DNA of 64,000 nt, from the NCBI GenBank assembly GCA_030390025.1, contig CM059431.1, positions 149,794,001 to 149,858,000 on the forward strand, read 5' to 3'. Below are positions 1 to 52,596 of this stretch, piece by piece. A model generated the notes under the pieces. That model saw nothing but the letters and a program-made list of their open reading frames with translations. It was not told the origin of the DNA and did no database searches. The translations under genes were made by a program, and so were the position numbers. Every line of letters begins with the position of its first letter. Within the stretch, counting starts at the first letter, position 1. This DNA comes from Squalus acanthias. Lineage: Eukaryota.

Positions 1-632
1 TTTCCTGCGGCTCTCCATCTCTGGGTCTCTGGGATTCTCCCCACTGCTGGGACCCCGGAGTCTCCTGCGGGCTCTGCTGGACACTAAAATGTGTCTGACG
101 GTGAGAGCATTGAGCAGCAGAATCACAACAAATGAGACCCCTGGGGTGAGAATATAATGAAGGAACTCAATTGCTCCCCAGACCAGTGAAAACATAACAT
201 CTATTGTTACACCACAAAACCAGGGGAGGTTCGTTAGCGAATATTGATCTGTGAACATAAAATACCAGAACATGTTCTTTAAACCGCTCAGCACAGTCAC
301 TGTTCCCAGAACCACAGCCGCCGTTTTCTCGGTGCAATATTTAGTTTTCAGCTTCTGGCGGCAAATGGCCACAAATCGATCAAAGGTGAAAGTGACGGTG
401 AACCAGACAGAACAGTCTGTGGCTGCATAAAGCAGGACGGCGTGGATATTACACACGGGGATGGACTCCACGAAACGAAACTGTTCACTAAAAACAATCG
501 GAATCTGCCTCAATATCAGGTCCAGGATAACGACCAGTAGATCAGCCGCTGCCATGGCCACCAGGTAGCGAGAAACACATTTGGAGAGACCGCACTTTCC
601 CCGAGACAAGATTACAATCGTCACTAAGTTCA
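1..632 (-). CDS. GPR139/GPR142-like class A GPCR, exon 2 (runs off the left edge; open in the visible part)
   Basis: Acceptor ttccctt cctctcAG at 634-633, then phase-1 (V)NLVTIVILSRGKCGLSKCVSRYLVAMAAADLL...TVTFTFDRFVAIC...LTPGVSFVVILLLNALTVRHIL...EMESRRK with no stop down to base 1. TM2 AxADL and TM3 DRF motifs are present. Confidence 0.9.
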
Positions 633-2549
633 CTGAGAGGAAGGGAAATAAACAGGGAAATTATACATCAGGCTGCGAGCAAGAGCAGCAGTTTGATGGA
701 AATCGGGCTGAAATCTGCGAATCAATAGCGACATTCAATGATATAATCTAATTCTATTACCCTTAGAGCTGAATGCAGGGTTTCCTGTAAGAGTAATCGG
801 GAATACATTGTGGGATTAAGAAATGAAACGGGGATAAATACAACATGAAAGTATCAGATGTTTGATCAATGAGAGATTAAATGGTAGATCTATTTTTAGC
901 CCCGCAGACAAAAACATCGCCCGACGTACCAGGGACACAAAGGACCAGAACATCTCAGGAAGCCTACGTGTCCCGGGATCAGTCAGCATTTGGAGCGGTG
1001 TAATTCGCTTCAGTGCCCCTGTGTTCGGGAGGGGCAAATCCCGCTTGGATTCCTGCTCCTGGTTACATTATCCATTTTATTTAGAACTGAAAGTGAATGC
1101 AACGGTAAAATACAGAAACTGTAATCTTGGTATGCAATAATTACAGGCAATTGGATTTAAACTGTACGGCGGTAATATGCAAGTACTACGATAATAAATA
1201 AAAGTGCACTGCAGTTATAAAGATAACTGAGAATTAAGAAGTGTTTGAAGAGTGAGCTTTCCATAGTTTTGTTGAAATACTCAAATTGTGGCTCATTAAA
1301 AGGAAGATTTTCCAAATAAAATTGCTGAGAATGGAATCTGAATTAAAATACATAGTTATGATTGACCAGGTAATATCCCACTCATTGCATTTATTAGCTT
1401 CATGATTATGCGACTCATCCCACAGGCAGCGAGCCGCCGAACGCTTTCGTAAAGTATCTGAAAACAAATGGAAGTTAAATATCCTCGAACTTTTTCACCT
1501 GTTTGTTTTCAACTTATGAAAGGATTTTCTTATCCTCGGTACTTCAGTTACAATCAGATGGGATTGTTTATCCTGCAGTACAGCAGGAGGCAATAGAGAA
1601 TCACTCTGGGTCTCACTGAGAGATCCATTGAACCGTGACAGACGGGCACGGGATCCAATTGTAAATTCAAAACAAATATTGGAAATAAACGCATTGAAAT
1701 ATGGCTGACGGAACGTTTTTTGAGAATTTTAATTATCCTTGTAATCCTATTGTAACCATCAGAAACAGTTTCAATAATGCAGATCTGGAGTTGGTGGGAA
1801 AGGAGACACTGACTGGAACTGAATGATTTGCGGATATTTCAGACATTTAAAAATGTGTTTGTGATCTGCCAGGATTTGTTCCTGTGACACTGTGTCAGTA
1901 ACCATGCCGAGCATTCACTGAAAACAATATCAAATTACTGTGGATGCTGAAAATCTGAAATAAGAACAGGAAATGTTTTAAATACTCAGCAGGTCAGGCA
2001 GCATCTGTAGAGAGAGTGTGAGAGAGTTAACGTTTCAGGCCGATAATCATTCGCCATTAGTTAAAAAGTCTCCTCAAACAAGAAAACATTCCTCTGATCT
2101 GTTACAAATGTTCAGTGTAGATTGCAGAACGAAATTCGTTAAGCAAAGAGTCTCGTTTAATATCCTTTCTTGAGTTGAATATAGAACAATTAAATCTTGG
2201 TAACACTGTATCACCCTCAGAATCAAAAGCAGACAGCAGTGCGGATGGGATGGAGAATGACAAGGAGAGAAATACAGTTAAACATGATTTATAGAATTAA
2301 TAGCGGGATACAGATACTTACCAGGAACACCTACAGCAGCGAGGATGTGCCAGTCATTTTAAACAACAACTCTTGCATTAACAAAGATGCAGCAACTTGA
2401 AACACAGAATACAATTAATAACTGAGTATGCCACGGTAAATCGCATGAATAATATTACAGTATAAAATGGTTTATTGAATTAATCACTGGATATAGATAT
2501 TTAAAAGGAACACTGACAGTAGAAAAAAGGGGATAGTAAATGTTTTGTA

Positions 2550-19299: not shown

Positions 19300-22200
19300 A
19301 AATTAAATTACCGCAGGTAAAGGCTTTGACAGACAGTGTATGGGTGACCAAGAAGAAGGGCAATATCAGGAAGGTAGTGCAGGAGTCTCCTGTGGTCTTC
19401 TCCCTCCAAAACAGGTATGCCGCTTTGGATACTGTTGGGGGAGATGGCCTACCAGGGGAAGGCAACAGCAGCCAGGTTCATGGCACCATGGCTGGCTCTA
19501 CTGCACAGCAGGGCGGGAAAAAGAGTGGTAGGTCTATAGTGATAGGGGACTCAATTGTAAAGGGAATAGACAGGAGTTTCTGTGGCCGCAACCGAGATTC
19601 CAGGATGGTATGTTGCCTCCCTGGTGCAAGGGTCAAGGATGTCTCGGAGCGGCTGCAGAACATTCTGAAGAGGGAGGGTGAACAGCCAGCTGTCGTGGTG
19701 CATGTAGGTACCAACGATATAGGTAAAAAGCGGGAAGAGGTCCTACAAGCAGAATTTAGGGAGCTAGGAGCTAAATTAAAAAGTAGGACACTAAGGTAGT
19801 AATCTCTGGATTTCTACCAGGGCCACGTGCTAATCAGAATAGAGAGAACAGGATAGTGAGATTGAATACGTGGCTTGAGCAGTGGTGCAGGAGGGAGGGA
19901 TTCAAATTCCTGAGGCATTGGAACCAGTTCTGGGGGAAGTGGGACCTGTACAAAAGGGACGGTCTGCACTTGGGCAGGACTGGAACCGATGTCCTCGGGG
20001 TAATATTTGCTAAAGCAGTTCGGGAGGATTTAAACTAATATGGCAGGGGAAGGGGAAACTATGTAGCGAAACAGGGGGAAGTAATATGCAGTCAGAAACA
20101 AATGTTAGAAGGGTGAGAACCAACAGGGGAAGTCCGAGTAAACAAAGGCAAGACACACAAAGGGCCATACTAAATCACAAGTCTAAAAGGACAAAGGATG
20201 TTAATAAAATAAGCCTAAAGGCTCTGTGTCTTAATGCAAGGAGTATCCGTAGTAAGGTGGATGAATTGACTGTGCAAATAGATGTTAACAGATACGATGT
20301 GATTGGGATTACAGAGACGTGGCTCCAGAACAATCAAGGCTGGGAACTGAACATCCAGGGGTATTCAACATTCAGAAAGGATAGAATAAAAGAAAAAGAG
20401 GGTAGGGTAGCATTGCTGGTTAAAGAGGAGATTAATGCAATAGCTAGGAAGGACATCAGCTTGGAGGATGTGGATTCAATATGGGTTGAGCTGCAGAACA
20501 CCAAATGGCAGAAAACGTTAGTGGGAGTTGTGTACAAAAAAGGCACGGCAGTTATCATGGGTGACTTTAATATGCATATAGATTGGGCTACTCAAACTGG
20601 AAGCAATACGGTGGAGGAGGATTTCCTGGAGTGTTTAAGGGATGGTTTCCTAAACCAATATGTTGAGGATCCAACTCGAGGGGAGGCCATCCTGGACTGG
20701 GTGTTGTGTAATGAGGAAGGACTAATCAGCAATCTTGTGGTACGAGGCCCCCTGGGAAGAGTGACCATAGTATGGTGGAGTTCTACATTAGGATGGAGAA
20801 GGAAACAGTTAAGTCAGAGACCATGGTCCAGAACTTAAATAAGGGCAACTTTGAGGGTATGAGGCGTGAATTGGCGAGGTTAAATTGGCAAGCGATATTT
20901 AAGGGGCTATCATTGGAAGGGCAATGGCAGACATTTAGAGATCGCATGGATGAACTACAACAATTGTACATCCCGGTCTGGCGTAAAAATAAAAAAGGGA
21001 AGGTGGCTCAACCATGGCTAACAAGGGAAATCAGGGATAGTATTAAATCCAAGGAAGTTGCATACAAATTGGCCAGAAGTAGCAGCAAACCCGGGGACTG
21101 GGAGAACTTCAAAACTCAGCAGAGGAGGACGAAGGGTATGATTAGGGCAGGGAAAATAAAATATGAAAGGAAGCTTGCAGAGAACATTAAAATGGACTGC
21201 AAAAGCTTCTATAAATATGTAAAGAGAAAGAGGTTAGTGAAAACAAACGTAGGTCCCCTGCAGTCGGAAACAGGGGAAGTCGTAATGGGGAACAAGGAAA
21301 TGGCTGATCAATTGAACATGTACTTTGGTTTGGTGTTTACTGTGGAGGACACACACAACCTGCCGGAAATAAAAGGGGTCAGAGGATCTGGTAAGAGGGA
21401 AGAGCTGAGGGAAATCCTTATTAGTCGGGAAAAGGTATTGGGGAAATTGATGGGACTGAAGGCTGAAAAATCCCCGGGGCCTGATGGTCTGCATCCCAGA
21501 GTACTTAAGGAGGTGGCCTTGGAAATAGTGGATGCATTGACGATCATTTTCCAACATTCCTTAGTCTCTGGATCAGTTCCGATGGAGTGGAGGGTGGCCA
21601 ATGTAACCCCTCTTTATAAAGAAGGAGGGAGGGAAAAAGCAGGGAATTATAGACCGGTCAGCCTGACATCGGTCGTGGGTAAAATGATGGAAGCAATTAT
21701 TAAAGACGTCATAACAGACCATTTGGAAAGTGGCGACATGATAGGTCCAAGTCAGCATGCATTTGTGAAAGGGAAATCATGCTTGACAAATCTTCTGGAA
21801 TTTTTTGAGGATGTTTCCAATAGGGTGGACAGGGGGGAACCAGTAGATGTGGTGTATTTGGACTTTCAGAAGGCCTTCGACAAGGTCCCACACAAGAGAT
21901 TGGTGAGCAAAGTTAAAGCACATGGGATTGGGGGTAATATGTTGACGTGGATTGAGAACTGGTTGGCACACAGGAAACAAAGAGTAGAAGTAAATGGGTA
22001 CTTTTCAGAAAAGGCAGGCAGTGACCAGCAGGGTACCGCAGGGTTCGGTGTTGGGACCCCAGCTGTTTACATTATATATTAATGATTTGGACGAAGGGAT
22101 TAAAAGTAATATCTCCAAATTTGCGGATGACACTAAATTGGGAGGCAGTGTGAACAATGAGGAGGATGCTAGGAGGCTACAGAGTGACTTGGACAGGTTG

Positions 22201-34684: not shown

Positions 34685-35588
34685 TGAACTTAGTGACGAT
34701 TGTGATCCTGTCTCGGGGAAAGTGCGGTCTCTCCAAATGTGTCACTCGCTACCTGGTGGCCATGGCAGCGGCGGATCTACTGGTCGTTATCCTCGACCTG
34801 ATTTTGAAGCAGATTCCAATTGTTTATATGGAACAATTTATTTTTCTTACTGTCAATCCCCGTGTGTAATATCCATGCCGTCCTGCTTTATGCAGCCGCA
34901 GATTGTTCTGTCTGGTTCACCGTCACTTTCACCTTTGATCGATTTTTGGCCATTTGTCGCCAGAAGCTAAAAACTAAATATTGCACCGAGAAAACGGCGG
35001 CTGTGGTTCTGGGAACAGTGACTGTGCTGAGCGGTTCAAAGAACATTTTCTGGTATTTTATGTTCACAGATCGGTATCAGCTTCAGAACATCCCCTGGTT
35101 TTGTTATGTAACAATCAATTTTTGGATGTCAAGGGTCTGGGGAACAATCGAGTTCCTTCATTATATTCTCACCCCGGGGGGTCCCATTATTTGTGATTCT
35201 GCTGCTCAATGCTGTCACCGTCAGACACATTTTAGTGGCCAGCAGAGCCCGCAGGAGACTCCGGGGTCCCAGCAGTGGGGAGTGTCCCAGAGACCCAGAG
35301 ATGGAGAGCCGCAGGAAATCCATCATTTTACTTCTTGTTATCTCGGGCAATTTCATCCTGTTATGGGCAGCGTTTATGGTGGCTGCTATATGGAACCGGA
35401 TGTGGTATGTGGAGTTTCGGTCTGCAAGTCCACCTCTTTATTTACAGGAATTTGGATTGATGCTGCAGCTGCTGAGTTGCTGCACAAACACTGGAATTTA
35501 CGCGGTGACCCAGACTAAGTTCAGAGAGCAGTTGAAGAATGTGGGGAAATATCCGTTTACTCTGATTGTAAAATTCATTAAAGGATGA
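34685..35588 (+). pseudogene. GPR139-like GPCR exon 2, two frameshifts
   Basis: Acceptor ccacacAG at 34683-34684; NLVTIVILSRGKCGLSKC..DRFLAIC..CCTNTGIYAVTQTKFREQL..KG*. Frame changes near 34845 and 35180. No exon 1 is visible between the gap and the acceptor. Confidence 0.88.
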
Positions 35589-39180: not shown

Positions 39181-39206
39181 AAAAATCCAGGTTCCGGGAG
39201 AGGTAT

Positions 39207-40844
39207 TGTAAGGGTCACGGACTGGTGCGAGCTGAGGCTTTCGATGCCTCTACTATTTCTTGCTCTGGTCTTCGTACAGACTTTTGCAATAAGCACCTGT
39301 GAGTGGTTCGACCCACTCGCCATTACGGTTCTGACATCTGCACTTAGATGCAAGGAGCAGTGATGTAGAGAACGACTCAAATAGACCTGGTTGAATAGCA
39401 CGAAATGAATGTCTTTGTTGCATTGCGTCTAAAATCATGAAATACATGTCATAGGCGCAGATCAAAGAGAGTACCAGTATACACACGTTTATTAAACTTG
39501 GTCTATGGAAATGGGGAACACACGACACATCGTAAAAGGGTGAACACATTATACATTAACCTTAGAAACCACCCTCCCTTAATATACCTAAACTACGTCT
39601 GGATTTGTATTATCGGGAAACCTGCTCACCACTCAGCTCACTTCGGAAATTTAAAATGAGGCTCTCAGATCGTTTCGCTGCAGCGCCTATCTGTCACGTG
39701 GCTGTAAGGGTTTCTGCACCCGACTTGTTTACTCTCGCTGCCGCGAATGGGTCCACTCGAGACGGCCCCGGTAAAGTTCGTCGCGGATGGCTCACGCTAT
39801 CCGCTCAAAGAGCCGGAGGGTAAGCCAAACTCCCTGATGTCATGAATTAGTTTGTGGAATTCAAACCTGGTCATGAAGTACTCTGTAGAATTCGAACTGG
39901 TGGACTCTGCCGTTTATCTTCGGGCGCGGTCGGGGTTTACTGACCGTGGCGGCACGTGGAATTTCTTCTCGTCTTTCTTCTCGTCTTCTCGTCACTCGGG
40001 CCTCACTCGGGAACACACCGCTGTGTTGCCCTGATGGGTCCGGACACCGTTTACCGACGATCGGGATGGTGTACCCTGCTGCCTGCCATGTCGAGGTGGC
40101 TCGTTCCGATTGAAATCCACCCAACACTCGAATACCGACCAGCGCAGCCCCGCCGAAGAAACCAGCACACGACAAGAGCGAAGAGCGAAGAGTCAAGAGC
40201 CAAGAGCCTGATGGACATTTGTCCCCTATAGTTATACAGTTTTGTCGGCCTTATCTCCCGCTCAAATCTAAATGTTATCCTTTGTGTGATTTTGGCGCCC
40301 AAAACTCCCAGCATGGGGCGATTATCTTCTTAATGGGTTTCGGTATCACCTGAAACTGGCCAACTATCCGTTAATGCCTTCTTCATTGTTGAGCCAGCCA
40401 GGATGTGTATGAATCGTCTCCTCAACTGGTTTTGGGACCCCCTGAATACTGGCTTAATCACCCGCCAATGTCTCTCTCATTGTTGATCCGGGGGGGTATT
40501 TGTGTAATGATGTGTCTGGATGGGCTTTCGATGGCCCAGTGCAATGATTCTTACTGTGCGTATGAAACGATTCAAGCACTTATATCATTGCTATTGTCCA
40601 AAAATGCAAACGGGTTGCATCCTGCCTTTTCAATTTGTACCAGGTATGATCTCATACTGAATGTATATTCGACGCCATCTTGTCTGCCCACTGTGTCTCT
40701 GGAAGCTTCTGCCACGATGCGCGGCGGCCATTTTGCAGGCTTCTGTACCCTTTATTTTCAAGACAGCATTCCGTTCAATAAAAATGATCAATTGAACCTG
40801 CTTCTCTCATATTATTAGAATCACGATAATTGCGAAACTCTACA
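39207..40844 (-). repeat. 3' LTR
   Basis: Direct repeat of 46691-48322. Minus-strand AATAAA at 39493-39488 and TATATTAA at 39586-39579. Confidence 0.97.
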
Positions 40845-40856
40845 GTCCCTCCTGTT
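40845..40856 (-). promoter_or_regulatory. Polypurine tract
   Basis: AACAGGAGGGAC directly precedes the 3' LTR TG on the minus strand. Confidence 0.8.
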
Positions 40857-41280
40857 GATGCGAATAACTCCGCTTATCATATCAATTAAATGCTTTTGAT
40901 TAAAATTATCCCGATTCTCCACATCCAAACGTTCCCGGTAATTAATCTATCTATGGCCCCCACGACACATGTAGTCCTCATTTCCCAGAAAAATCACACT
41001 GTGTTTATCTTGGATAATCATAGACAGCATTGCCTTTAACTTACACTGCGTATTCGCCTTCCAGGTGCAAAAGGCCGATGCCTCTTGCACTACCTGTACA
41101 TGCATGTTTTATTACAAAAGAAAAACAATTAAACCGACTGTTTTAAAAATACAACAGTTCCAAAAACTTAGCCACAAAAGCTTATAACTACAACAATTAC
41201 AACACACACACGGTAAAATGGAGGGGCACTATCCTGGCAGCTTACGCAGTAGTTTCCTCGTTCACGCGCACGTAACGTTC

Positions 41281-43591
41281 TTACCACTCCGCTGTGTTCT
41301 CCTGCCTCGTGAGGCGTTTGCCCCTTTTGCAGTGCACGAACAACAGGTACACTACAATTACAACTTGACATACTACCAAAATGTGGGAGGCTATCCTGAT
41401 CCTTACGGGACTTCAATATTAGTGAACAGATCCCACCACGGTGGGGTTACTATGTCCAATATCTCTGCCCCTATCTCTAGAGTCTTCTGTTCCAGGGTGT
41501 AAAAATGTTTCTGTGATACCATGACGGCTTTTAAAATCTTGGTGAGGTGTTCAGGGAGAGGGGGAATGATGTACGCGAAATGCGCGACGAATCGCTGCAA
41601 GTCTGTGAAATTCTCTTTAACAGTGAGGTGAACCGTGGAGGGTGCAGGAATTGGGACAATTCGCTGTTGTGCCACTTGAACTTCAGCCCTGGGTTTAAAA
41701 CAGAAAATGCTGTCACTCACCGGACACTGACTGTTCTGTCCATGCTGGTAGTGTTGCGCTGCAGTGGTAACGCAATACGTTCCACCCCCTATGTATGCCA
41801 CCTGTGGGGGCACATGATCTTGTGTCATTGCTTCCATGGTGCAATTCATGGGCTTCGCCCCAGCCGTTCTGAACCCGCATTGTGGTATTAAAAAGGCATT
41901 CAAGTGCTGGGGACCAAGTATGAGGTGTGCTCCCCTGCTATGACAACCTGAGAGGTCGGTACCTGTCATCGTTTGCTCCCAGCGGATGACGTAAGGTGGG
42001 ACCGCTGCGTAGCGAATGTGGGCTCCCCACTGAATGAGTCCAATGTTCTCCACCCTGTACACCGGGGCGGGCTTTGCTGTGTTGCCCAACACCGGCATCC
42101 GTACCACTATACCCATGATAGTGTGATTTGAGTGTCCGCAGTCCACTGGGACTGGGTATGCCTCTGAGGCTAGCCTGAGCTGGCACGGGCTTAATGGGTT
42201 CTGAAAAGGGTGTAGCGCCTGCAGGTGTTTGTTGCTTATCCAGGACGGGACCAAACCTTGTTTTAAATCCTCCAAATTACTGCGGCCTTCGCCCAGTAAC
42301 CACACCCCGTATAACACGCACACCTCGTTCTGCGCAGCTTGATCGGATGCATTTCGATCTTCCCTGATCAGGGCATTTACCGTTCTCGCATGATTCTCCA
42401 GCTCTGCTATAATCTCTTTTAAGTGTAGTGTCATGGCCTGGTCCTTATGTAACTCAGACCCTACTACTTTATTCTCATTTGTGACGATGCTCTTTAACTG
42501 TGTCTTTAAACCGCTGATCTGTGTCTGCAGCTCTACATTATCTAGAGCGTTGACCACAGATGTTCCCGTATTAAAAGCAGTGAACACATCGTTCACAGCA
42601 CCCCTTCTTTGTCTCCCCACCTGACCAAAACTTCGTGTGGTGTGGTGTATTAGCTTGTTTTGTCAACCTCTGCAAAATCGAACTCATAAAACTGCCTGAA
42701 CATGTTTGTTAACAGGACCTGGTACAATTTTTCCGTTTCTTTGGGGCACCATTCTGGCAAATGCACCTCGGTGAGATTTAGAATCACCGAGGCCACCGCG
42801 TAATGTACCCCCTGATACAGTATCTGATCTGTTGGCACCAGTAACAGACCATTCCCGGGCCCCTTAGTGGTTTTAGGGCACCCTTGCTCCTGAGCCAATG
42901 CCACCGGAATCGTGGGCGGGGACTTGCGTGGGCGCGTGATGAGTTCAGTGGCGTTTACCGGGATCGGGGAGAATGGAGCTCCGCACCCCCGGGTGCTGAC
43001 GTCCCACCTCATCCCTTTCCCGGCATCCTGCCACTGTTGTAGGAAAAATATGGATATACCCTTGGGGCAAACGTACGTAGATCCCCACATACAAACATAT
43101 ATTCCCTCATCCGGTTCCCACCATTTGTCCCAACAGACTCTCACTTGTCCGTTAGTCCCCGTAATTGTCCGATGGGTATTGTTACCCAATCGCTCCCACT
43201 CGACCGAGGAATTTCTCATAGTCTTGCTTAACTTCCGTAACCACCACCATCGGCTCAATGTGACGTTTAAAATGCACACCAAACAAATCCTTTTGCCAAC
43301 GGTGACGCTGATTCTGAGTGCAACGATCCTCACCCTGGGACACAGTAAAGAAGTCTCTTTGTACGCAAACACGGATGCGCTGGAGTATTCCGTTGAATTC
43401 GTTCCCAGCCATCCCGGTCACCTTCCATTATGGAAATAAGTGGCGCTTTCCTCAGCCTCTCACTTCCCGGTCCCATCCGTCGTGATGGGGGCCGTGTCCC
43501 CGGAGCAACCGAACACAACGACATTCTTGGTGAGGCCCCGATAGGCCAATCCATATCCGATCGTCGCGAGCACCACAAGAATCCAATTCAT
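41281..43591 (-). pseudogene. env: Envelope glycoprotein, class I fusion protein resembling paramyxovirus F; disrupted
   Basis: Signal peptide MNWILVVLATIGYGLA (ATG 43591, AG acceptor 12 nt upstream); two in-frame TGA; Ig-like segment; F2-like CPKETEKLYQVLL; frameshift near 42655; furin site RQRR at 42614-42603; heptad helix; Cys-rich region; frameshift near 41405; TM IASHILVVCQVVIVVYLLFVHC-KRGKR; stop at 41281. Confidence 0.85.
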
Positions 43592-43850
43592 ATCTCCTGG
43601 TTCCTGTGATCAGATAAAATGATGTAGCCAGCCTCCCAACAGTCTCTGGCTTTTGTGAAGGGTGAGCGGGTCCCTTGACCTCGTCTCACGTACAAGACAT
43701 GCATACTGGATAGACCTTAACTATTCCTATCACTAACTCCCATCATTTTACCATTTACTTATGAAATTAATCTACAATCTCAACCTGATATTAATACCTA
43801 AACTTATCCTCCTAAAATTACTGTACAGCGCCGCTCGTTCCCAGGGCGGC

Positions 43851-44888
43851 CTAGCTAACTCCTGAGAAGGCTGCTGCGAGCTGTTCCCCGTGGCGGGGGG
43901 ACACTGACCCTTGTCTTTGATCCGCCGCAGCCTGTCGCTGCCGATCGGGAACTGGGACCTCCCTGGGCTGCCTTGGACTTATACCTGGGGGTGTACGAGG
44001 GATCTGACCACAACTTCCTGTGCTGGGGTGTCCGACTCGACCTGCAGAGGGCCACCTTGGGCAAGGCCTCCAGGGCCGACGGACCGGGACTTCCACCGTC
44101 ACCGCCTGTGGTACCACCACAGCCGCCGGTTCTGTATCCCCTGGCTCCACCCCCCTGGGCTCGAGATCTGCGGTTTCCGACTCCACCCTACTTGTTTCAA
44201 CAGTAGGTGAATCTCCACCCGTAATCCCTACCTCCCCTATGCTCGGGTCGTGGGTGGAACCTCCGTCCTCCGACCCCACCACCTCTCCGACCGGGTCACA
44301 AACTTGGTCGAGCCCTCCGGGCCCTTCCTCATCCGAATCCCAAGAAAAAGGAGAGACCCTCCACTTTTGCAGAATGTCTTCTCCCCTCACGCAGGCTGCA
44401 TTACCGGCCTGCGTGACCTGCGGTTCTACCCGGGGCTGAGAGTCCCCACTCGCAGGTCTGGCCCCTCCCCTAAGACAGGCCACCGCCCCTGCTTGTGCAT
44501 TCTGTGTAATATCGCCTGCTGGAGGCTGAAGATTTCTATTCTGTTTTAGTTTGGGCAACTCTGCTACCATGGCTTGCAACTGCGGGGTGTTGAATTCCCC
44601 CGGGGTTGTTGAGCAAACCATCCCTCTGGCTTTGGATAGGGCTTGGGTCACAAATTTTATACTTTCCTCACAGGGCCCATGGTTTAAATCCTCATACTCC
44701 CTGCTCCTGGCTACCCTGTAGGCTGCCTTTATGTCTCTAAGCTGCCCTTCTAGCCCGTCTATTTTCCCCATTAAGCGAGCGTTCTCCTCCCGTAAGGCCT
44801 GCTCATTTAACCTGGCCTCCTTACAGGAGGTCTGTTCCTGTGCGTGTCTTTCAAGGGGACACAGGTAGGCAGGCTGCGCCGGTTCCAA
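43851..44888 (-). CDS. ORF2 in the pol position: duplicated Gag-N coiled-coil/HxxC module plus low-complexity acidic/Pro-rich tail
   Basis: 345 uninterrupted codons in frame directly after the gag TGA (44891-44889). No DT/SG protease, YxDD or DDE motifs were seen. Confidence 0.6.
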   Translation of the reverse strand: MEPAQPAYLCPLERHAQEQTSCKEARLNEQALREENARLMGKIDGLEGQLRDIKAAYRVARSREYEDLNHGPCEESIKFVTQALSKARGMVCSTTPGEFNTPQLQAMVAELPKLKQNRNLQPPAGDITQNAQAGAVACLRGGARPASGDSQPRVEPQVTQAGNAACVRGEDILQKWRVSPFSWDSDEEGPGGLDQVCDPVGEVVGSEDGGSTHDPSIGEVGITGGDSPTVETSRVESETADLEPRGVEPGDTEPAAVVVPQAVTVEVPVRRPWRPCPRWPSAGRVGHPSTGSCGQIPRTPPGISPRQPREVPVPDRQRQAAADQRQGSVSPRHGEQLAAAFSGVS

Positions 44889-46615
44889 TCAGAAGTCTGG
44901 GTTGTATGGGGCTGTTGCTACCTTTCCGTGTGAGGTCATAAGAGACCGCATGGCTCCTAACATTGACTCGATCGCGTCGTAATGGATAGGCACACCAGCT
45001 CCTCTCTCAGAGACAGGCGTTTGGGCTCGGACTGCGGGAGCTTTCTCCTTGGAATCCTTCCAGGGATTCCTACAGTTTTTGCGCTAGTGACCTGCCTTCC
45101 CGCACCCGTAACAAACACTATTGGTTTGTGCGGCGCGATTTCCCTCCTGATGCCACTCTTTCTGAGCCGGAGCTGCGGGCTTTGCTTCATGCACTTTTCT
45201 CTTAAGGGGACGCGCTCCCGTGCTTCTAGTATTTCTATGTCCTATGGTGAGCTGACTCAGGACCGACTCCTCCATTGTATTGGGGTTGGTGGGATCAAAC
45301 CACGCCTTGGCTTGCTCCCTGATGGCTGGCAAGCTGTTGGCGACTACGCACCTGAGCCAATGAGCTTTCTCGACACCGTGCAGGTTGTGACGCGCTGGTG
45401 TACTTGGGCAGCTACGCTGATATACTGGCCACAGCCTTTCGGCGAAAACTCGTGGGGGTTCTCCCTCCATCTGTACTGTCTGACCCAGTCTGCCAAACGG
45501 ACCTTCGTCATCCACTCCCAACACTTCCAGGACCTCGTCCCGTAAATCCTCATAGCCCCTAACTCCCCTCTTGCTCTCGTCGGAGAGACACTAAAGGATT
45601 GAGCTATCCAAAGAGAACAGCAACATTCTGGTCTTTTCCTCCCCGTCGCAGCCATTAATCGCTGCGGTCTGTTCTACCTCTCTAAAATGAACGGAAGGAT
45701 CTCCTGACTCTGACAGTTTCCGGACATGGCTGATCATTGCCCTCAGCTGTTGTGAGCTGTGGGGCACTACAAGTTGGTTTAAAAGGGTCCCGTCTTCCCC
45801 ATCTGCCCCGTTCGGGCCCCGCTTTTGTTCTCGGACCGGACACATCGGTGCCGGGTTCGACACTACCTCCGGGGTTTGTTCTACCTCGGGAACCTCCTTC
45901 TCAATTTCTACCGCTTCCTCCCTCACCCAGGTTTCCGTATAGCTGGGTGGCGCTGAGGGCTTGGTGGTTGGTACCACACCTGCTTTTCTTGGCAGTGGTT
46001 TTGGGAATTCCCTAGCTACCTGTGGCTGGCTCGCTGACGGGCTGATGAAACACACCAAGCCGTTCGCCTTATTCAGGGCCTCTCTCAGGTCCTATATCTC
46101 TCTCTGGCAAACGCTGTGGTCGGCTCACTCAGACTTATCCTCGAGAGCCATCTTGTATGCCGCCCTAACTCCCTGAGACTTTCTTCCTGGGTCTTTATCT
46201 GGTTAGCTAGGCGGATACACCGTTCTTTAATCTTTCCCTCACTTAACTTAGCTTCCGTGACCTGGCAGTCTAAGTAATCGATCCTAGCCTCGTGGTGGCT
46301 GGCTACTATTTGGCGTTCCTGATGCAACGCATTCAGTGATGCAATCAGTTTCTGTCCTCCCATAACCTTTTCCTCCATCTCTGTGTCTAACTCTTTGATC
46401 TGAGCTGTCTGTGCTGCAATGACCTGGTCCGAAAGTTGGACTTGCTCTTTGTAGCACATCAACCAGACCGATTTCTCTACTGACTTCTTATATTCTCTGC
46501 TACCTGTCCACCTGATGGCTGCGTCTAGCGGACGCCTATCCGTCAGTAGGTCACATATCCACTGTTTGGTCAGGGTTACATTCCCGAAAACATAGTCGGC
46601 TACTTTTTCGTCCAT
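44889..46615 (-). pseudogene. gag: Gag polyprotein, disrupted by frameshifts and stops
   Basis: ATG 46615 (or 46687 overlapping the PBS); coiled coil; PSAPPSY late domain (45959-45939); MHR-like QMEGEPPRVFAERL (45473-45432); zinc knuckle CYGCGKAGH*RKNC (45113-45072). Confidence 0.88.
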
Positions 46616-46668
46616 TACATTTCGTTTATTCAAACCTGGGTCTAAGACATTACTCTCTTGCTGCCAGG

Positions 46669-46686
46669 GTCCTGCCGTGGGCGCCA
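46669..46686 (-). promoter_or_regulatory. Primer-binding site, tRNA-Lys-like
   Basis: TGGCGCCCACGGCAGGAC begins 4 nt after the 5' LTR CA. It shares TGGCGCCC with the Lys1,2 and Lys3 PBS sequences. Confidence 0.8.
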
Positions 46687-46690
46687 TTTC

Positions 46691-48322
46691 TGTAAGGGTC
46701 ACGGACTGGTGCGAGGTGAGCTTTCGTTGCCTGTACTATTGCTTGCTCTGGTCTCCGGCCAGACCTTTGCAATAAGAACCTGTGAGTGGTTCGACCCACT
46801 CGCCCTTACGGTTCTGACACCTGGACTGAGATGCAAGGAGCAGTGATGCAGAGAAAGACTCAAACTGACTTGGCTGAATAGCACGAAATGAATGTCTTTA
46901 TTGCATGGCGTCAAAATCATGAAATACATGTCATAGGCGCAGATCAAAGAGATTATCAGTATACAAACGTTTATTAAACTTGGTCTATGGAAATGGGGAA
47001 CACATGACACATCGTAAAAGGGGGAACACATTATACATTAATCTTAGAAACCACCCTCCCTTAATATACCTAAACTACGTCTGGATTTGTAGGATCGGGA
47101 TACATGCTCACCACTCGGCTCACTTCGGAAATTTAAATGAGGCTCTCAGCTCGTTTTGCTGCAGCGCCTGACTGTCACGTGGCTGTAAGGGTTTCTGCAC
47201 CCGACTTGTTAACTCTCGCTCCCGCGAATGGGTCCACTCGAGACGGTCCCGGTAAAGTTCATCGCGGATGGCTCAGGCTATCCGCTCAAAGAGCCGGAGG
47301 GTAAGCCAGACTCCCTGATGTCATGAAGTAGTTTGTGGAATTCAAACCGGGTCATGAAGTAGTCTGTAGAATTCGAACTGGTGGACTCTGCCGTTTATCT
47401 TCAGGCGCAGTCGGGGTTTACTGACCGTGGCGGTACGTGGAATTTCTTCTCGTCTTTCTTCTCGTCTTTCTTCTCGTCACTCGGGCCTCACTCGGGAACA
47501 CATCGCTGTGTTGCCCTGATGGGTCCGGACACCGTTTACTGACGATTGGGATGGTGTACCCTGCTGCCTGCCGTGTCGAGGTGGCTCGTTCCAATTGAAC
47601 TCCACCCAACACTCGAATAACAGACCAGCGCAGCCCCGCCGAAGAAACCAGCGCACGTCAAGAGCGAAGAGTCAAGAGCCAAGAGCCCGATGGACATTTG
47701 TCCCCTGTAGTTATACAGTTTTGTCGGCCTTATCTCCCGCTCAAATCTAAATGTTATCCTTTGTGTGATTTTGGCGCCCAAAACTCCCAGCATGGGGCTA
47801 TTATCTTCTTAACGGGTTTCGGTATCACCTGAAACTAGCCAACTATCCGTTAATGCCTTCTTCATTGTTGAGCCAGCCAGGATGTGTATGAATCGTCTCC
47901 TCAACTGGTTTTGGGACCCCCTGAATACTGGCTTAATCACCCGCCAATGTCTCTCTCATTGTTGAGCCAGTGGGTATTTGTGTATTGATGTGTCTGGATG
48001 GGCTTTCGATGGCCCAGTTCAATGATTCTTACTGTGCATATGAAACGATTCAAGCACTTATATCATTGCTATTGTCCAAAAATGCAAACGGGTGGCATCC
48101 TGCCTTTTTAATTTGTACCAGGTATGATCTCATACTGAATGTATATTCGACGCCATCTTGTCTGCCCACTGTGTCACTGGAAGCTTCTGCCATGATGCGC
48201 GGCGGCCATTTTACAGGCTTCTGTACCCTTTATTTTCAAGACAGCATTCCGTTCAATAAAAATGAACAATTGAACCTGCTTCTCTCATATTATTAGAATC
48301 GCGATAATTGCGAAACTCTACA
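46691..48322 (-). repeat. 5' LTR
   Basis: Direct repeat of 39207-40844, adjacent to the PBS. TATATTAA at 47068-47061 and AATAAA at 46975-46970. Confidence 0.97.
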
Positions 48323-51300
48323 GTATGCAAATAGTATTTGTAGTGTGATAGCACCAAAAAGCAGGTAAGTGATTGGTTGGTGAGTGTTTTCTTTCTCAAT
48401 TTTTCTAAACTTTAATGTTGTGGTTTCTACGGTCTCTTTGTGTAGCGGGGACTACTGTTAAGCAAGGGCATTTGAGTATATCACTTAATTCTAGTGTAAT
48501 TGGTGGCATCCATTTAATTTTAATTTAATTTAAATTAATTAATTAAAGGATAAGTCATGGCAGGTGAGCTCGGTGCTGTGACATGCTCTTCCTGCACTAT
48601 GTGAGAAATCAGGGACACTTCCTGTGTCCCTGACAACCATGTGTGCAGGAGGTTTTTCCAGCTGCAGCTACTGACAGACCGCATTGCGGCGCTGGAGCTG
48701 AGAATGGATGCATATTGGAGCATTCGCGATTCTGAGCACATCTTGGATAGCACGTTTAGGGAGTTGGTCACACCGCAGGTAAATGGTGTACAGGCAGGAT
48801 GGGAATGGGTGACCACCAGGCAGAGTAATAGGCGCAGGCAGGCAGTGCAGGGGTCTCCTGTGGCCATCCCCCTCCCAAACAGATATATTGCTTTGGATAT
48901 TGTTGAGGGAGATGGCTTATCAGGGGAAGACAGCAGCAGCCAACTTCCTTGCACCGTAGGTGGTTCTGCTGCACAGGATGGGAGGAAAAAGTGTGGGCCA
49001 GCTATAGAGATAGGGGATTCTATTGTAAGGGGAATAGATAGGCGTTTCTGCGGCCGCAAACGAGACACCAGGATGGTATGTTGCCTCCCTGGTGCAAGGG
49101 TCAAGGATGTCTCAGAGCGGTTACAGAGCATTTCGGAAAGGGAGGGTGAACAGCCAGTTGCTATGGTGCATATAGGTACCAACGATATAGGTAAAACAAC
49201 GGGATGAGGTACTAAAAGCAGAATATAGGGTGTTAGGAGGTAAATTAAAAATAGGACCTCAAAGGTAGTAATCTCAGGATTGCTACCAGTTCCACGTGCT
49301 AGTCAGAGTAGAAATAGAAGGATATTTCAAATGAATACGTGGCTAGAGGAATGGTGCAAGGGGGAGGGATTCAAATTCCTGGGGCATTGGAACCGGTTAT
49401 GTGGGAGGTGGGACCAGTACAAACCGGACAGTCTACACCTGGTCAGGGCCGGGACCGATGTCCTAGGGGGAGTGTTTGCTAGTGCTCTGGGGGGGGGGGG
49501 GGGGGTTTAAACTAAAATGGCAGGGGGTTGGGAACCTGAGCAGGGAGACAGAGGAAAGGGAAACAAGGATAAAAGCAAAAGATAGGAAGGAGAAAAACAA
49601 AAGTGGCAGTCAGAGAAAACAACGCTTTAAATCAAACATGGCCACAGTAAATACTAATTCTAATCGGTGTAAGAGCGGTAAAAAAACAAGCCTGAAGGCT
49701 TTGTGTCTTAATGCAAGGAGCATTGGGATCATGGTGGATGAATTAGCTGCGCAAATAGAGGTAAACGAATATAATTTGATTGGAATAACCGAAATATGGC
49801 TCCAGGGTGGCCAGGGCTGGGAACTCAACATCCAGGGGCACTCAATATTCAGGAAAGATAGGCAAAAAGGAAAGGGAGGCGCGGTAGCTTTGCTGGTTAA
49901 AGAGGGGATTAACAAAATTGAAAGGAAGGATATTAGCTCTGATGATGTGGAATCTGTATGATTTGAACTGAGAAATAACAAGGGGCAGAAAACGTTAGTG
50001 GGAGTGATACGTAGACCTCCAAACAGTAATGCGGAGTTTGGGGATGGGATTAAAAGGGAAATTAGAGAAGCGTGCAATAAGGGCACAGCAGCCATCATGG
50101 GTGACTTTAATCTACATATAGATTGGGCTAACCAAATTGGTAACAATACTATGGAGGACGAATTCCTGGAGTGTTTACGGGATGGTTTCCTGGAACAATA
50201 TGCCGAGGAACCAACCAGAGATCAGGCCATCTTAGACTGGGTATTATGTAATGAAAAAGGATTAATTAGCAATCTTGTTGTGCGAGGCCCCTTGGGTCGG
50301 AGCGATCATAATATGATACAATACTTCATTAGGATGGAGAGTGAAGTAGTCGACTCAGAGACTTGGGTCCTGAATATAAATAAAGGAAACTACGATGGTG
50401 AGGTGCGAGTTTGGTACGATTTATTAGGGAATGCCACTCAAAGGGTTGACGGTGGATAGACAATGGCAAACCATCAAAGAACACATGGACGAACTACAGA
50501 ATTTGTTCATCTCGGTTTGGCATAAGAATAAAACAAAAAGTGTGATTCAACCTTGGCTAACAAGGGAAATTAGGGATAGCATAAGATCCAAGGAGAGCGC
50601 ATATAAATTGTCCAGAAAAAGCAGAAACCTTGAGAATTGGGAGCAGTTTAAGATTGAACAAAGGAGGACAAAGGGATTAATTAAGAAGGGGGAAATAGAA
50701 TACGAGAGTAAGCTGGCGGGGAATATAAAAACTGACTATGAAAGCTTTTATATAAATGTGAACAGAAGAAAAAGATTAGTGAAATCAAGCATAGGTCCCT
50801 TGCAGTCAGAATCAGGGGAACTTATAATGGGGAACAAAGAAATGTCAGACCAATTAAAAGCATATTTTGGTTCTGGCTTCACAAAGGAGGATACAAGTAA
50901 TCTCCCAGAGATGTTGGAGAACATAGGGTCTGATCAAAGAGAGGAACTGAAATAAATCAGTATTTGTAGGGAAATGGCGTTAGGGAAATTGAACGGATTG
51001 AAGACCGATAAGTCCCCAGGGCCTGATAATCTATATCCTAGGGTACTAAAGGAAGTGGCCCTAGAAATAGTAGATGCATTGCTGATCATCTTCCAACATT
51101 CGATGGAATCTAAAACACTACCCATGGATTGGAGGGTAGCTAATGTTATCCCACTATTCAAAAAGGGTGGTAGAGAGAAAACAGATAATTACAGACCGGT
51201 AAGCCTGACATCGGTAGTGGGGAACATGCTAGAGTCCATTATAAAAGATGTAATAGCTGAGCACTTGGAAAACAGTGACAGGATCGGACAAAGTCAACAT

Positions 51301-52596
51301 GGATTTACGAAAGTTAAATCATGCTTGAATAATCTACTGGAATTTTTTGAGGATGTAACTGGTAAAATAGATAAGGGAGACCCAGTGGATGTGGTGTATT
51401 TGGAATTCCAAAAGGCTTTGGATAAGGTCCCGCATAAGAGATTAGCGTGTAAAGTTAAGGCACATGGGATTGGGGGCAAGGTATTGGCTTGGATAGTGAA
51501 CTGGTTGGCAGACAGAAAGCAAATTGTTGGTATAAACGAGTCTTTTTCCGAGTGGCAGGCAGTGACTAGTGGGGTACCGCAGGGATCGGTCTTTGGACGC
51601 CAGCTATTCACAATATATATTAATGATCTAGACAAGGGAACTAGATGTAATTTCTCCAAGTTTGCAGACGATACAAAACTGGGTGGGCGTGTGTGCTGCG
51701 AGGAAGATGCCGAGAAACTCCAGGATGATTTGGACAGGTTGGGTGATTGGGCAGAAACGTGGCAGATGCAATATAACGTGGATAAATGCGAGGTTATCAA
51801 CTTTGGTGTCAAAAACAGAAAGGCAGATTTGTATCTGAATTGCAATAGATTGGGAGAAGGGGAAATGCAACGAGACCTGGGTGTCCTTGTGCACCAGTCG
51901 CTGAAGGTAAGCATGCAGGTGCAGCATGCGGTTAAGAAGGCAAATGGTATGTTGGCCTTCATAGCGAGACGGTTTGAGTACAGGAACAAGGATGTCTTGC
52001 TGCAGTTGTACAGGGCCTTGGTGAGACCACACCTTGAGTACTGTGTGCAGTTTTGGTCGCCTTATCTGAGGAAGGATGTTCTTGCCATGGAAGGAGTTCA
52101 GCGAAGATTCAGAAGGCTGATACCTGGGATGGCAGGAATGACGTATGAGGAGAGATTGGGTCGATTGGGCTTATACCCGCTGGAGTTTAGAAGAATGAGA
52201 GGGGATCTCATTGAAACTTATAAAATTCTGACAGGACAGGACAAACCAGATGCAGGAAGGATGTTCCCGATGGTCGGGGAGTCAAGAACCAGGGGTCACA
52301 GTCTAAGGATAAGGGCTAAGCCATTTAGGACAGAATTGAGGAGGAATTTCTTCACCCAGAGAGTGGTGAAGCTGTTGAATTCTCTGCCACAGAAGGCACT
52401 CGAGGCCAATTCATGCAATAGATTCAAGAATGAGTTGGATATATTTCTTAAGGCTAAAGGGATCAAGGGATATGGGGAGAAAGCAGGAACAGGGTACTGA
52501 ATTTGGATGATCAGCCATGATCGCATTGAATGGCGGTGCAGTATAGAGGGGCGGAATGGCCTACTCCTTCTCCTATCTTCTATGATTCTATGATTT
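48323..52596 (+). mobile_element. Essentially full-length CR1 LINE (extreme 5' end probably at 39181-39206); ORF1 esterase and ORF2 APE-RT with several stops
   Basis: ORF1 ATG 48557 (CSSC..CRR, IGDSIVRG, VHIGTND); ORF2 CLNARSI..SDHN; 508-aa RT segment 50974-52500 with FADD; (tatgattc)n tail. Confidence 0.95.

What the first reader, a model, noticed from the sequence alone, without database searches (positions are those of the whole stretch)
39207..48322. Complete provirus with gag and env but no pol: candidate helper-dependent lokiretrovirus-like element
Seen: both LTRs, a 4-bp GTAT target duplication, PBS and PPT are in place, so the unit went through reverse transcription and integration. 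The 5.8-kb interior is accounted for by gag, ORF2, a ~250-bp spacer, env and a 3' UTR, with no protease, RT, RNase H or integrase motif found. Known: non-autonomous LTR elements borrow Pol in trans, and lokiretroviruses carry Mononegavirales-F-like Env. Inference: this may be a lineage that kept particle and entry genes but outsourced its enzymes, not a one-off deletion, because the pol slot holds a distinct long ORF.
Basis: partly seen in the sequence, partly recalled or inferred. Interest (0 to 1): 0.9.

Follow-up and report, generated by a model that had tools for sequence, protein, structure and literature searches.

The report
Helper-dependent provirus with portable pol-slot cassette
This is a broken copy of a large retrovirus family, probably in a cartilaginous fish, in which many copies keep their coat and envelope genes but have the enzyme gene replaced by a small borrowed cassette; the same cassette also sits in a second, distant retrovirus family, so it behaves like a parasite passed between viruses.

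Summary
Observation confirmed: two LTRs (95.4%), GTAT duplication, tRNA-Arg primer site, PPT, gag, ORF2, env, and no protease, RT, RNase H or integrase. It is a family, not a one-off: of 38 family copies sampled by their LTR-PBS junction, 12 lack pol and 26 carry it, with the same LTR ends, PBS and PPT. ORF2 is not a new gene. It follows gag's conserved UGA in frame and joins 11 Pol codons, a coiled coil taken from a third family's Gag (87% nucleotide identity) and Pol's post-integrase tail. Pol-less and pol-bearing copies interleave on trees of both flanks. The same stop-plus-cassette (91-98%) occupies the pol slot of a second family whose Gag is about 49% identical. The lokiretrovirus label fails: the helper RT has LPQG, not the PFG of all 24 lokiretrovirus rows, and is closest to snakehead retrovirus among references seen. 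The F-type Env is real but not specific. This copy's own frames are broken. The scan met this family before on other DNA; the donor and the second family were not in the notes I saw. Verdict: new variant of a helper-dependent ERV.

The parts
46691..48322 (-). 5' LTR, 1632 bp
   Evidence: 95.4% to the 3' LTR, K2P 0.048
39207..40844 (-). 3' LTR, 1638 bp
39203..39206 (.). target-site duplication GTAT, left copy
48323..48326 (.). target-site duplication GTAT, right copy
46669..46686 (-). primer-binding site for tRNA-Arg(TCG), 4 nt after the LTR; 16 of 18 bases match in this copy; overlaps the gag start codon
   Evidence: family PBS is the complement of the 3' end of host tRNA-Arg(TCG) genes
44889..46687 (-). 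gag, about 600 codons in the family: N-terminal coiled coil, capsid-like middle, one CCHC knuckle near 45072-45113; broken in this copy
   Evidence: (zf-CCHC 6e-4); capsid-like by language-model features only (a lead)
44889..44891 (-). conserved single UGA between gag and ORF2/pol, the inferred readthrough site
   Evidence: stop in 20 of 20 copies and in 34 of 34 sample rows printed
44856..44888 (-). ORF2 part 1: first 11 codons of pol
44595..44823 (-). ORF2 part 2: coiled coil captured from the Gag N-terminal region of a third ERV family
   Evidence: 87.3% over 229 nt to locus L133; own Gag 36% aa; sister family 54-55% aa
44461..44915 (-). module shared with a second ERV family: gag end, stop, pol start and cassette
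   Evidence: 91-98% per 100 nt against 57-73% in gag and 39-66% in the tail; limits
43855..44466 (-). ORF2 part 3: post-integrase tail of Pol, about 205 codons, low complexity; frameshift near 44085 in this copy
43592..43854 (-). pol-env spacer, shared with helpers
41242..43591 (-). env, about 789 codons in the family; furin site RQRR at 42603-42614, hydrophobic anchor near the end; paramyxovirus-F-like fold; broken in this copy
40845..40862 (-). polypurine tract next to the 3' LTR, identical in helpers

Best explanation
A non-autonomous form of a snakehead-retrovirus-like endogenous retrovirus, probably in a cartilaginous fish (host inferred from named Env relatives). SHOWN: the helper is LTR-gag-UGA-pol(PR, RT, tether, RNase H, IN, tail)-env-LTR. 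The pol-less form is the same genome with everything from pol codon 12 to the end of integrase replaced, in frame, by a coiled coil from a third family's Gag. Both forms share LTR ends, PBS, PPT and 4-bp duplications, and both occur at every age level sampled. The stop-plus-cassette module also fills the pol slot of a second family. INFERRED: the pol-less RNA makes its own Gag, a minor Gag-ORF2 product by UGA readthrough and Env from a spliced RNA. It is co-packaged with helper RNA and Gag-Pol, which supply the enzymes. Template switching during reverse transcription keeps swapping the pol slot between backgrounds, so the slot behaves as a two-allele locus and the cassette spreads as a parasite of the family. 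I think the cassette gives a modest advantage in cis through its open frame or its Gag-type coiled coil (about even odds), as the IAP 1-delta-1 fusion does. The window copy itself is a dead, older insertion.
For: No pol in the copy. 12 pol-less and 26 pol-bearing among 38 family copies picked by LTR-PBS junction alone. Exact junction counts: 1258 cassette (both families) and 2043 pol (first family), reversed-pattern controls 0. 12 of 19 evaluated copies have exact 4-bp duplications, 11 at other sites. 6 of 7 extended helpers have the same PPT and a 4-bp duplication, 5 of 7 with LTRs 99.1-99.9% identical. Of the 30 further copies nearest the window's gag, 16 continue into protease and 14 into the cassette. 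Label changes on trees: 11 on gag (at least 6 forced by strong branches, 50 rows) and 10 on the tail/env side (at least 6, 42 rows). Open frames in the 12 pol-less sample copies: gag 11, ORF2 11, env 8. Pairwise dN/dS: gag 0.16-0.26, env 0.11-0.29. Donor and second family. UGA-CUA(G) is a documented readthrough context (PMC13517186, passages).
Against: No experiment shows readthrough, co-packaging or complementation. Selection on the cassette protein is weak: ORF2 dN/dS 0.45-0.74; net 0.29 between the two families with a bootstrap range of 0.09-1.00, and 1.64 (0.50-20) between older and younger copies of this family. Low dN/dS in gag and env may be inherited from helpers by recombination. Tree labels are still more clustered than shuffles (means 17 and 14), and 14 of the 25 pol-less rows were chosen by likeness to the window. 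No conserved RNA structure behind the stop: z -1.6 to -2.1 in three pol-less copies, +1.4 in a helper. The window copy departs from the family's stop context. The RT tree lacks lokiretrovirus, foamy and ERV-L references.
Confidence: 0.8

Rival explanations
1. Same helper dependence, but the cassette is neutral filler. A chance recombinant spread because a shorter genome with all cis signals replicates well; the frame stays open because copies are young or because translation merely protects the RNA.
For: ORF2 dN/dS 0.45-0.74; net ratio not clearly below 1; ORF2 length varies from 292 to 393 codons with different 3' joins and an internal duplication; no homologue among 8000 scored candidates.
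Against: Length variants keep the frame (ORF2 open in 14 of 20, 11 of 12 and, over 140 codons, 11 of 15 copies). One cassette, not many different deletions, fills the slot in two families: 12 of 13 shortened copies in the 38-copy sample.
Confidence: 0.4
2. The mixing of pol and cassette across backgrounds comes from gene conversion between chromosomal proviruses, not from co-packaging.
For: Thousands of similar copies offer templates; the window's two LTRs differ unevenly, 41 of 75 mismatches in the first 600 columns.
Against: Swapping about 3.7 kb of pol for a 0.4-kb cassette with both flanks following the nearest helper fits two template switches; the youngest pol-less copy extended has 99.8% identical LTRs and its own duplication; transfer between families only 57-73% alike in gag.
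Confidence: 0.1
3. The element is a lokiretrovirus relative.
For: F-like Env, two RNase H domains, Gag coiled coil, nearest named Pol hits labelled NYNRIN-like.
Against: LPQG against PFG in 24 of 24 lokiretrovirus rows; RT nearer snakehead retrovirus; F-like Env also in foamy and walleye retroviruses; 0 of 3 chondrichthyan genomes had lokiretroviruses in the defining paper.
Confidence: 0.05
4. The pol-less copies are kept by the host because their Gag or Env is useful, as proposed for zebrafish BHIKHARI Gag.
For: Open gag and env frames under purifying selection; precedent in bioRxiv 2024.03.25.586437 (passages).
Against: The window copy is broken in all three genes; older copies decay at scattered sites; host selection is not needed to explain copy number.
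Confidence: 0.05
5. A one-off post-insertion deletion or misassembly.
For: None found.
Against: 23 full-length matches to the 2-kb junction among 40 scored candidates; 1258 exact junctions; cassette sequence in contigs of four differently coded organisms.
Confidence: 0.01

Closest known systems
Non-autonomous Athila elements of Arabidopsis (PMC2410132; abstract and passages read)
   Same: LTRs plus gag and env ORFs without pol, under purifying selection, linked to autonomous elements by recombination.
   Different: Plant Ty3/gypsy elements; in the passages read no readthrough frame or captured cassette fills the pol slot; Env-like protein of unproven function.
Bovine ERVK[2-1-LTR] C/D pair, koala KoRV/recKoRV, mouse MusD/ETn (PMC10924933; abstract and passages read)
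   Same: The middle of a competent ERV is swapped for a piece of another retroelement, the flanks are kept, and the defective form is spread in trans.
   Different: The bovine D-type has no intact ORF. Here gag and env stay whole, the swapped piece is in frame behind the readthrough stop, and it has crossed into a second family.
Mouse IAP 1-delta-1 (PMC6466679; passages read)
   Same: Non-autonomous, with an in-frame Gag-Pol remnant fusion reported to aid retrotransposition in cis.
   Different: A plain 1.9-kb deletion in an env-less betaretrovirus-like element; its gag is truncated; no foreign cassette.
Zebrafish BHIKHARI-1/-2, endogenous lokiretrovirus relatives (bioRxiv 2024.03.25.586437; passages read)
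   Same: Fish ERVs that lack pol but keep an open Gag with an N-terminal coiled coil.
   Different: Gag only, no env; no helper in the reference genome; lokiretrovirus lineage.
Snakehead retrovirus and clade Huo (PMC6001957, PMC4422223, PMC12193657 passages; record L127)
   Same: Helper layout gag-stop-pol-env in one frame, gag starting at the PBS, coiled coil plus one CCHC in Gag; RT 70 of 140 identical; Pol 32% over 800 residues.
   Different: UGA instead of UAG; no detectable Gag or Env sequence match; no accessory ORFs seen after env; nearer relatives are frog and coelacanth Pol proteins at about 50%.
Lokiretroviruses (PMC7947760; parts 1-2 of 4 of the text, passages, supplement searches and parts 67-68 read)
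   Same: F-like Env with RXXR site, two RNase H domains, coiled coil ahead of capsid.
   Different: RT signature and identity do not fit.

Membership tests
Lokiretrovirus | RT falls in the lokiretrovirus clade, sister to retroviruses | tested here: not met
   Helper RT has LPQG; 24 of 24 lokiretrovirus rows have PFG, the 15 retrovirus rows read have LPQG. Identity 70/140 to SnRV, about 50/139 to Loki-Lch and 53/139 to feline foamy virus (by eye). No tree with lokiretrovirus sequences was built.
Lokiretrovirus | Env related to paramyxo/pneumovirus F | tested here: met
   Foldseek top hit hPIV3 F, E 2e-10 (model pLDDT 62, TM-score 0.28 by query, 0.47 by target). Not specific: foamy Env (E 6e-5), walleye retrovirus Env. 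No PF00523 hit.
Lokiretrovirus | Tether plus second RNase H | tested here: met
   RT_RNaseH_2 470-558 and RNase_H 650-793 in the helper; shared by all retroviruses.
Lokiretrovirus | Integrase closest to CGIN1/NYNRIN | tested here: inconclusive
   Nearest named Pol hits carry the automatic label NYNRIN-like, but their RTs lack PFG; no integrase tree.
SnRV-like retrovirus (clade Huo, class III) | RT groups with snakehead retrovirus | tested here: inconclusive
   One branch (95/96) holds helper, SnRV, frog and coelacanth proteins against gamma/epsilon-like rows, but the 14-row tree has no foamy, ERV-L or lokiretrovirus reference. SnRV is the nearest named virus by identity.
SnRV-like retrovirus (clade Huo, class III) | gag and pol in one frame across one stop; Gag with coiled coil and one CCHC | tested here: met
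   SnRV stop context as in PMC13517186 section 4.1.2
SnRV-like retrovirus (clade Huo, class III) | tRNA-Arg primer as in SnRV (recalled, not from a call) | not testable with these tools
   This family uses tRNA-Arg(TCG); the SnRV genome paper was not held.
SnRV-like retrovirus (clade Huo, class III) | Gag and Env homologous to SnRV's | tested here: inconclusive
   No tblastn hit at E<=0.05; Env profile E 0.078, Gag E 0.34.
Non-autonomous (helper-dependent) ERV | Lacks pol enzymes | tested here: met
Non-autonomous (helper-dependent) ERV | Many independent insertions with target-site duplications | tested here: met
   12 of 19 evaluated copies with 4-bp duplications, one being a segmental duplicate of the window copy
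Non-autonomous (helper-dependent) ERV | Autonomous partner with the same cis signals | tested here: met
Non-autonomous (helper-dependent) ERV | Mobilisation in trans shown by experiment | not testable with these tools
   sequence evidence only

The most novel reading that the evidence does not exclude
The module [gag end + UGA readthrough site + captured Gag coiled coil] is a portable, selected pol-replacing cassette. It is made as a Gag-ORF2 readthrough protein whose second Gag-type coiled coil draws in helper Gag-Pol in cis. By recombination it has turned at least two retrovirus families, only half identical in Gag, into two-component populations in which one genome supplies enzymes and the other only particles and envelope.
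Probability: 0.3. Interest if true: 0.8.

Novelty: new variant of a known kind. Interest (0 to 1): 0.58.

Why it matters
Known defective partners of vertebrate ERVs, in the papers I read, lose their reading frames or keep gag only. This one keeps gag and a fusion-protein env, recombines with its helper at every age level sampled, and carries one identifiable cassette that has moved between families. With over a thousand junctions, near-identical LTR pairs and helpers of matching age in one genome, it is a rich natural data set for an open question: are coding non-autonomous elements pure parasites or partners, and what lets them win in cis? It also shows that an F-type Env does not mark a lokiretrovirus, and that RT-based surveys miss about a third of such a family.

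Tried and rejected
Copies whose match broke inside the spacer were checked for hidden pol. The inserts read were a Harbinger-type DNA transposon and its short derivatives, LTR-like pieces, LINE sequence or satellite (12 loci fetched, 7 inserts read). Single-sequence Env fold: unusable, pLDDT 35. Env against PDB by sequence: nothing. Pfam on Env and 15 relatives: no PF00523. ORF2 homologue search: none among 8000 candidates of 190-606 residues. Gag against PDB: zinc knuckles only. RT query in viral contigs: no relative; a motif pattern gave one record, SnRV by its RT. Complex prediction of the Gag N-terminal part with the cassette: no verdict. Sequencing runs: no RNA holder listed; two runs laid were only guessed to be RNA, so expression is untested. 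RNA fold behind the stop: no shared structure. The idea that the cassette was copied from the family's own gag was rejected: 36% aa to own Gag against 73% aa and 87% nt to the third family. The script for spacer length found no env start, so that length comes from window coordinates. Literature searches: lokiretrovirus, with shark (56), pol-less gag-env ERVs (57), SnRV (64, 69, 95), EAV-HP (82, listing only), readthrough (93), coiled coil replacing pol (121, 0 papers), cartilaginous fish ERVs (123). None described this family or cassette. Subscription journals and Repbase were not searchable, and bioRxiv supplements were not opened.
Full report
OBSERVATION. The element lies on the minus strand between LTRs at 46691-48322 and 39207-40844 (95.4% identical; K2P 0.048; not dated in years, no rate at hand), with GTAT on both sides, a PBS 4 nt after the 5' LTR and a PPT at the 3' LTR. 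A six-frame Pfam scan of the interior found nothing, and a relative's Pol matches only at its first 16 and last 260 residues. The copy is dead: gag, ORF2 and env are each interrupted. A segmental duplicate of the same insertion lies about 1 Mb away (flanks 99.3-99.7% identical). The host is probably a cartilaginous fish: the closest named Env relatives are from Rhinoraja longicauda (76-80%) and Pristiophorus japonicus (60-74%), then Mustelus, Chiloscyllium and frogs.

IT IS A FAMILY. The 2-kb gag/ORF2/env junction matched end to end at 23 places, the window included, among 40 scored of 4836 candidates. I fetched 20 of the 22 others. Of 19 evaluated, 12 have exact 4-bp duplications, 2 share 3 bp, 1 runs into a second provirus and 4 lack a 3' LTR end. 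LTR pairs are 96.0-99.6% identical in the 16 of 20 where both were delimited. The PBS is the complement of host tRNA-Arg(TCG) 3' ends. The exact LTR-end-plus-PBS junction occurs 2921 times, reversed control 0.

THE HELPER. I took 40 of the first 100 listed junctions, about every second one, without regard to the interior. Two belong to a sister family; of the other 38, 26 carry pol (one internally deleted) and 12 the ORF2 layout. The long ORF has protease, RT, tether, RNase H, integrase and a 260-residue tail. Of 7 helpers extended, 6 have the same PPT and a 4-bp duplication, and 5 have LTRs 99.1-99.9% identical; one young pol-less copy has 99.8%. Exact junction counts are 1258 for the cassette and 2043 for pol; they are not a clean ratio, because the first also counts the second family below. 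The window's own subfamily had helpers: of the 40 best matches to its gag, 10 were already known to carry ORF2, and of the other 30, 16 continue into protease and 14 into the cassette.

WHAT ORF2 IS. A single UGA ends gag in 20 of 20 copies and in all 34 sample rows printed, in both forms, followed by CUAG or CUGG in nearly all. UGA-CUA(G) is a known readthrough context (PMC13517186, passages and section 4.1.2), and a class III frog ERV also has gag-UGA-pol (PMC8278194, passages). ORF2 has no methionine before codon 40 in 17 of 20 copies, so readthrough is the likely route; this is inference. ORF2 is 11 Pol codons, a cassette, then Pol residues from about 1234 on. The cassette's coiled coil is 36% identical to the family's own Gag, 54-55% to the sister family, and 73% (87% nt over 229 nt, window 44595-44823) to the Gag of a third family. 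That donor rests on one locus, L133, found among 7 places that matched a cassette motif but not the junction pattern.

A SECOND FAMILY CARRIES THE SAME CASSETTE. The other 6 of those 7 loci have Gag about 49% and Env about 70% identical to this family; 5 read gag-ORF2-env without pol and 1 breaks off after the cassette. Across the stop and cassette they are 91-98% identical to this family, against 57-73% in gag and 39-66% in the tail (2 loci profiled). Of the 20 next-nearest copies of that family, 15 have the cassette and 5 a protease. Older pol-less copies of both families share one gag C-terminus that differs from both helpers'. The module therefore crossed between families; the direction is not established. 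It uses the same LTR end and a similar Arg-type PBS.

RECOMBINATION. On a 700-nt gag tree of 25 pol-less and 25 pol-bearing copies the label changes 11 times, at least 6 forced by strongly supported branches. On the tail/spacer/env side it changes 10 times, at least 6 forced (42 rows; 8 dropped for a weak anchor). The same neighbours recur on both trees while six young cassettes are identical over 130 nt. Shuffled labels need 17 and 14 changes, so clustering remains, partly because 14 pol-less rows were picked by likeness to the window. Co-packaging with template switching (established retroviral biology) is the simplest cause; gene conversion is not excluded. Contigs of four differently coded organisms cover the cassette region and show its internal duplication, so the form is not confined to one assembly.

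SELECTION. Pairwise dN/dS from my own script, pairs not independent: gag 0.16-0.26, env 0.11-0.29, ORF2 0.45-0.74. Cassette, net of within-group diversity: 0.29 (bootstrap 0.09-1.00) between families, 1.64 (0.50-20) between older and younger copies. Frames are open in 11, 11 and 8 of 12 pol-less sample copies for gag, ORF2 and env; gag and pol in 18 of 26 helpers each. A protein role for the cassette is suggested, not shown.

WHICH VIRUS. Env modelled from a 35-row alignment (pLDDT 62) matches paramyxo- and pneumovirus F (E 2e-10), and also walleye and foamy retrovirus Env (foamy link in PMC11468914, abstract and passages). So F-type Env does not define lokiretroviruses. The helper RT has LPQG where 24 of 24 lokiretrovirus rows have PFG. 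It is 70 of 140 identical to snakehead retrovirus, whose record matched the published row; by eye about 50 and 53 of 139 to Loki-Lch and feline foamy virus. A 14-row tree joins helper, frog and coelacanth proteins and SnRV (95/96) but has no foamy, ERV-L or lokiretrovirus rows. I file it as SnRV-like, likely but not proven. SnRV-like ERVs are known from elephant shark (PMC4422223, passages).

COMPARISON AND VERDICT. Gag-plus-env without pol is known in Athila; central swaps in bovine ERVK, recKoRV and ETn; a cis-acting remnant fusion in IAP 1-delta-1; gag-only fish ERVs in BHIKHARI. PMC9040795 and PMC8922424 were seen as listings only; PMC12440569, bioRxiv 2023.10.26.564294, PMC11089739 and PMC10435555 as passages. 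Ten searches found no account of this family or of a cassette shared between ERV families. Earlier notes of this scan describe the family on other DNA; the eight I saw do not mention the third-family donor or the second family, and one derives the coil from the element's own gag, which my test does not support. New variant of a known kind; interest 0.58.

Noticed in passing
L022, L024, L025, L026 at the site matching window ~43796: A Harbinger-type DNA transposon (DDE_Tnp_4, E 1.5e-38) and its 750-900 bp derivatives sit at the same spot of the pol-env spacer in four copies, in both orientations, suggesting a sequence-specific target.
   Followed up: partly
L133 (G000:C1:246115800-246121800): The donor-family copy keeps protease and integrase but lacks Pol residues about 138-778 (RT and RNase H), and has two LTR-end/PBS junctions about 60 nt apart.
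   Followed up: no
L043/L093 and L050/L087: Sister family with a shorter LTR (938 bp in one copy) whose env lacks about residues 417-672 in both copies seen.
   Followed up: no
window 46669-46686; L012, L015, L017, L042: Two distinct Arg-type PBS variants alternate within the family, and the gag start codon overlaps the PBS.
   Followed up: partly
window 39207-39800 against 46691-47290: LTR differences are uneven (41 of 75 in the first 600 columns) with 39 transversions to 36 transitions; the LTRs may not have been identical at insertion, so the age may be overestimated.
   Followed up: no
L001 (G000:C7:148848617-148858531): Inverted segmental duplicate of this insertion about 1 Mb away, interior 99.4% identical.
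   Followed up: yes
env 5' part, window ~43000-43400: Weak immunoglobulin-domain hints ahead of the F-like part (Ig_3 E 0.28; a relative is named Ig-like domain protein); earlier notes of the scan treat this.
   Followed up: no
window 1-660 and 34808-35515: Two rhodopsin-family 7TM receptor frames (E 6e-15, 5e-6) among LINE RT fragments (20715-22079, 50956-52497) and satellites.
   Followed up: no
G000:C26:39.0-42.2 Mb: Long tandem arrays with a 1.62-kb unit holding tRNA-Arg(TCG) and tRNA-Ser genes; 424 matches to the tRNA-Arg 3' motif genome-wide.
   Followed up: no
L016; G000:C1:143657926-143673389: Tandem proviruses: one copy's 3' LTR is followed by a new PBS, and cassette junctions recur at about 7.7-kb spacing.
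   Followed up: no
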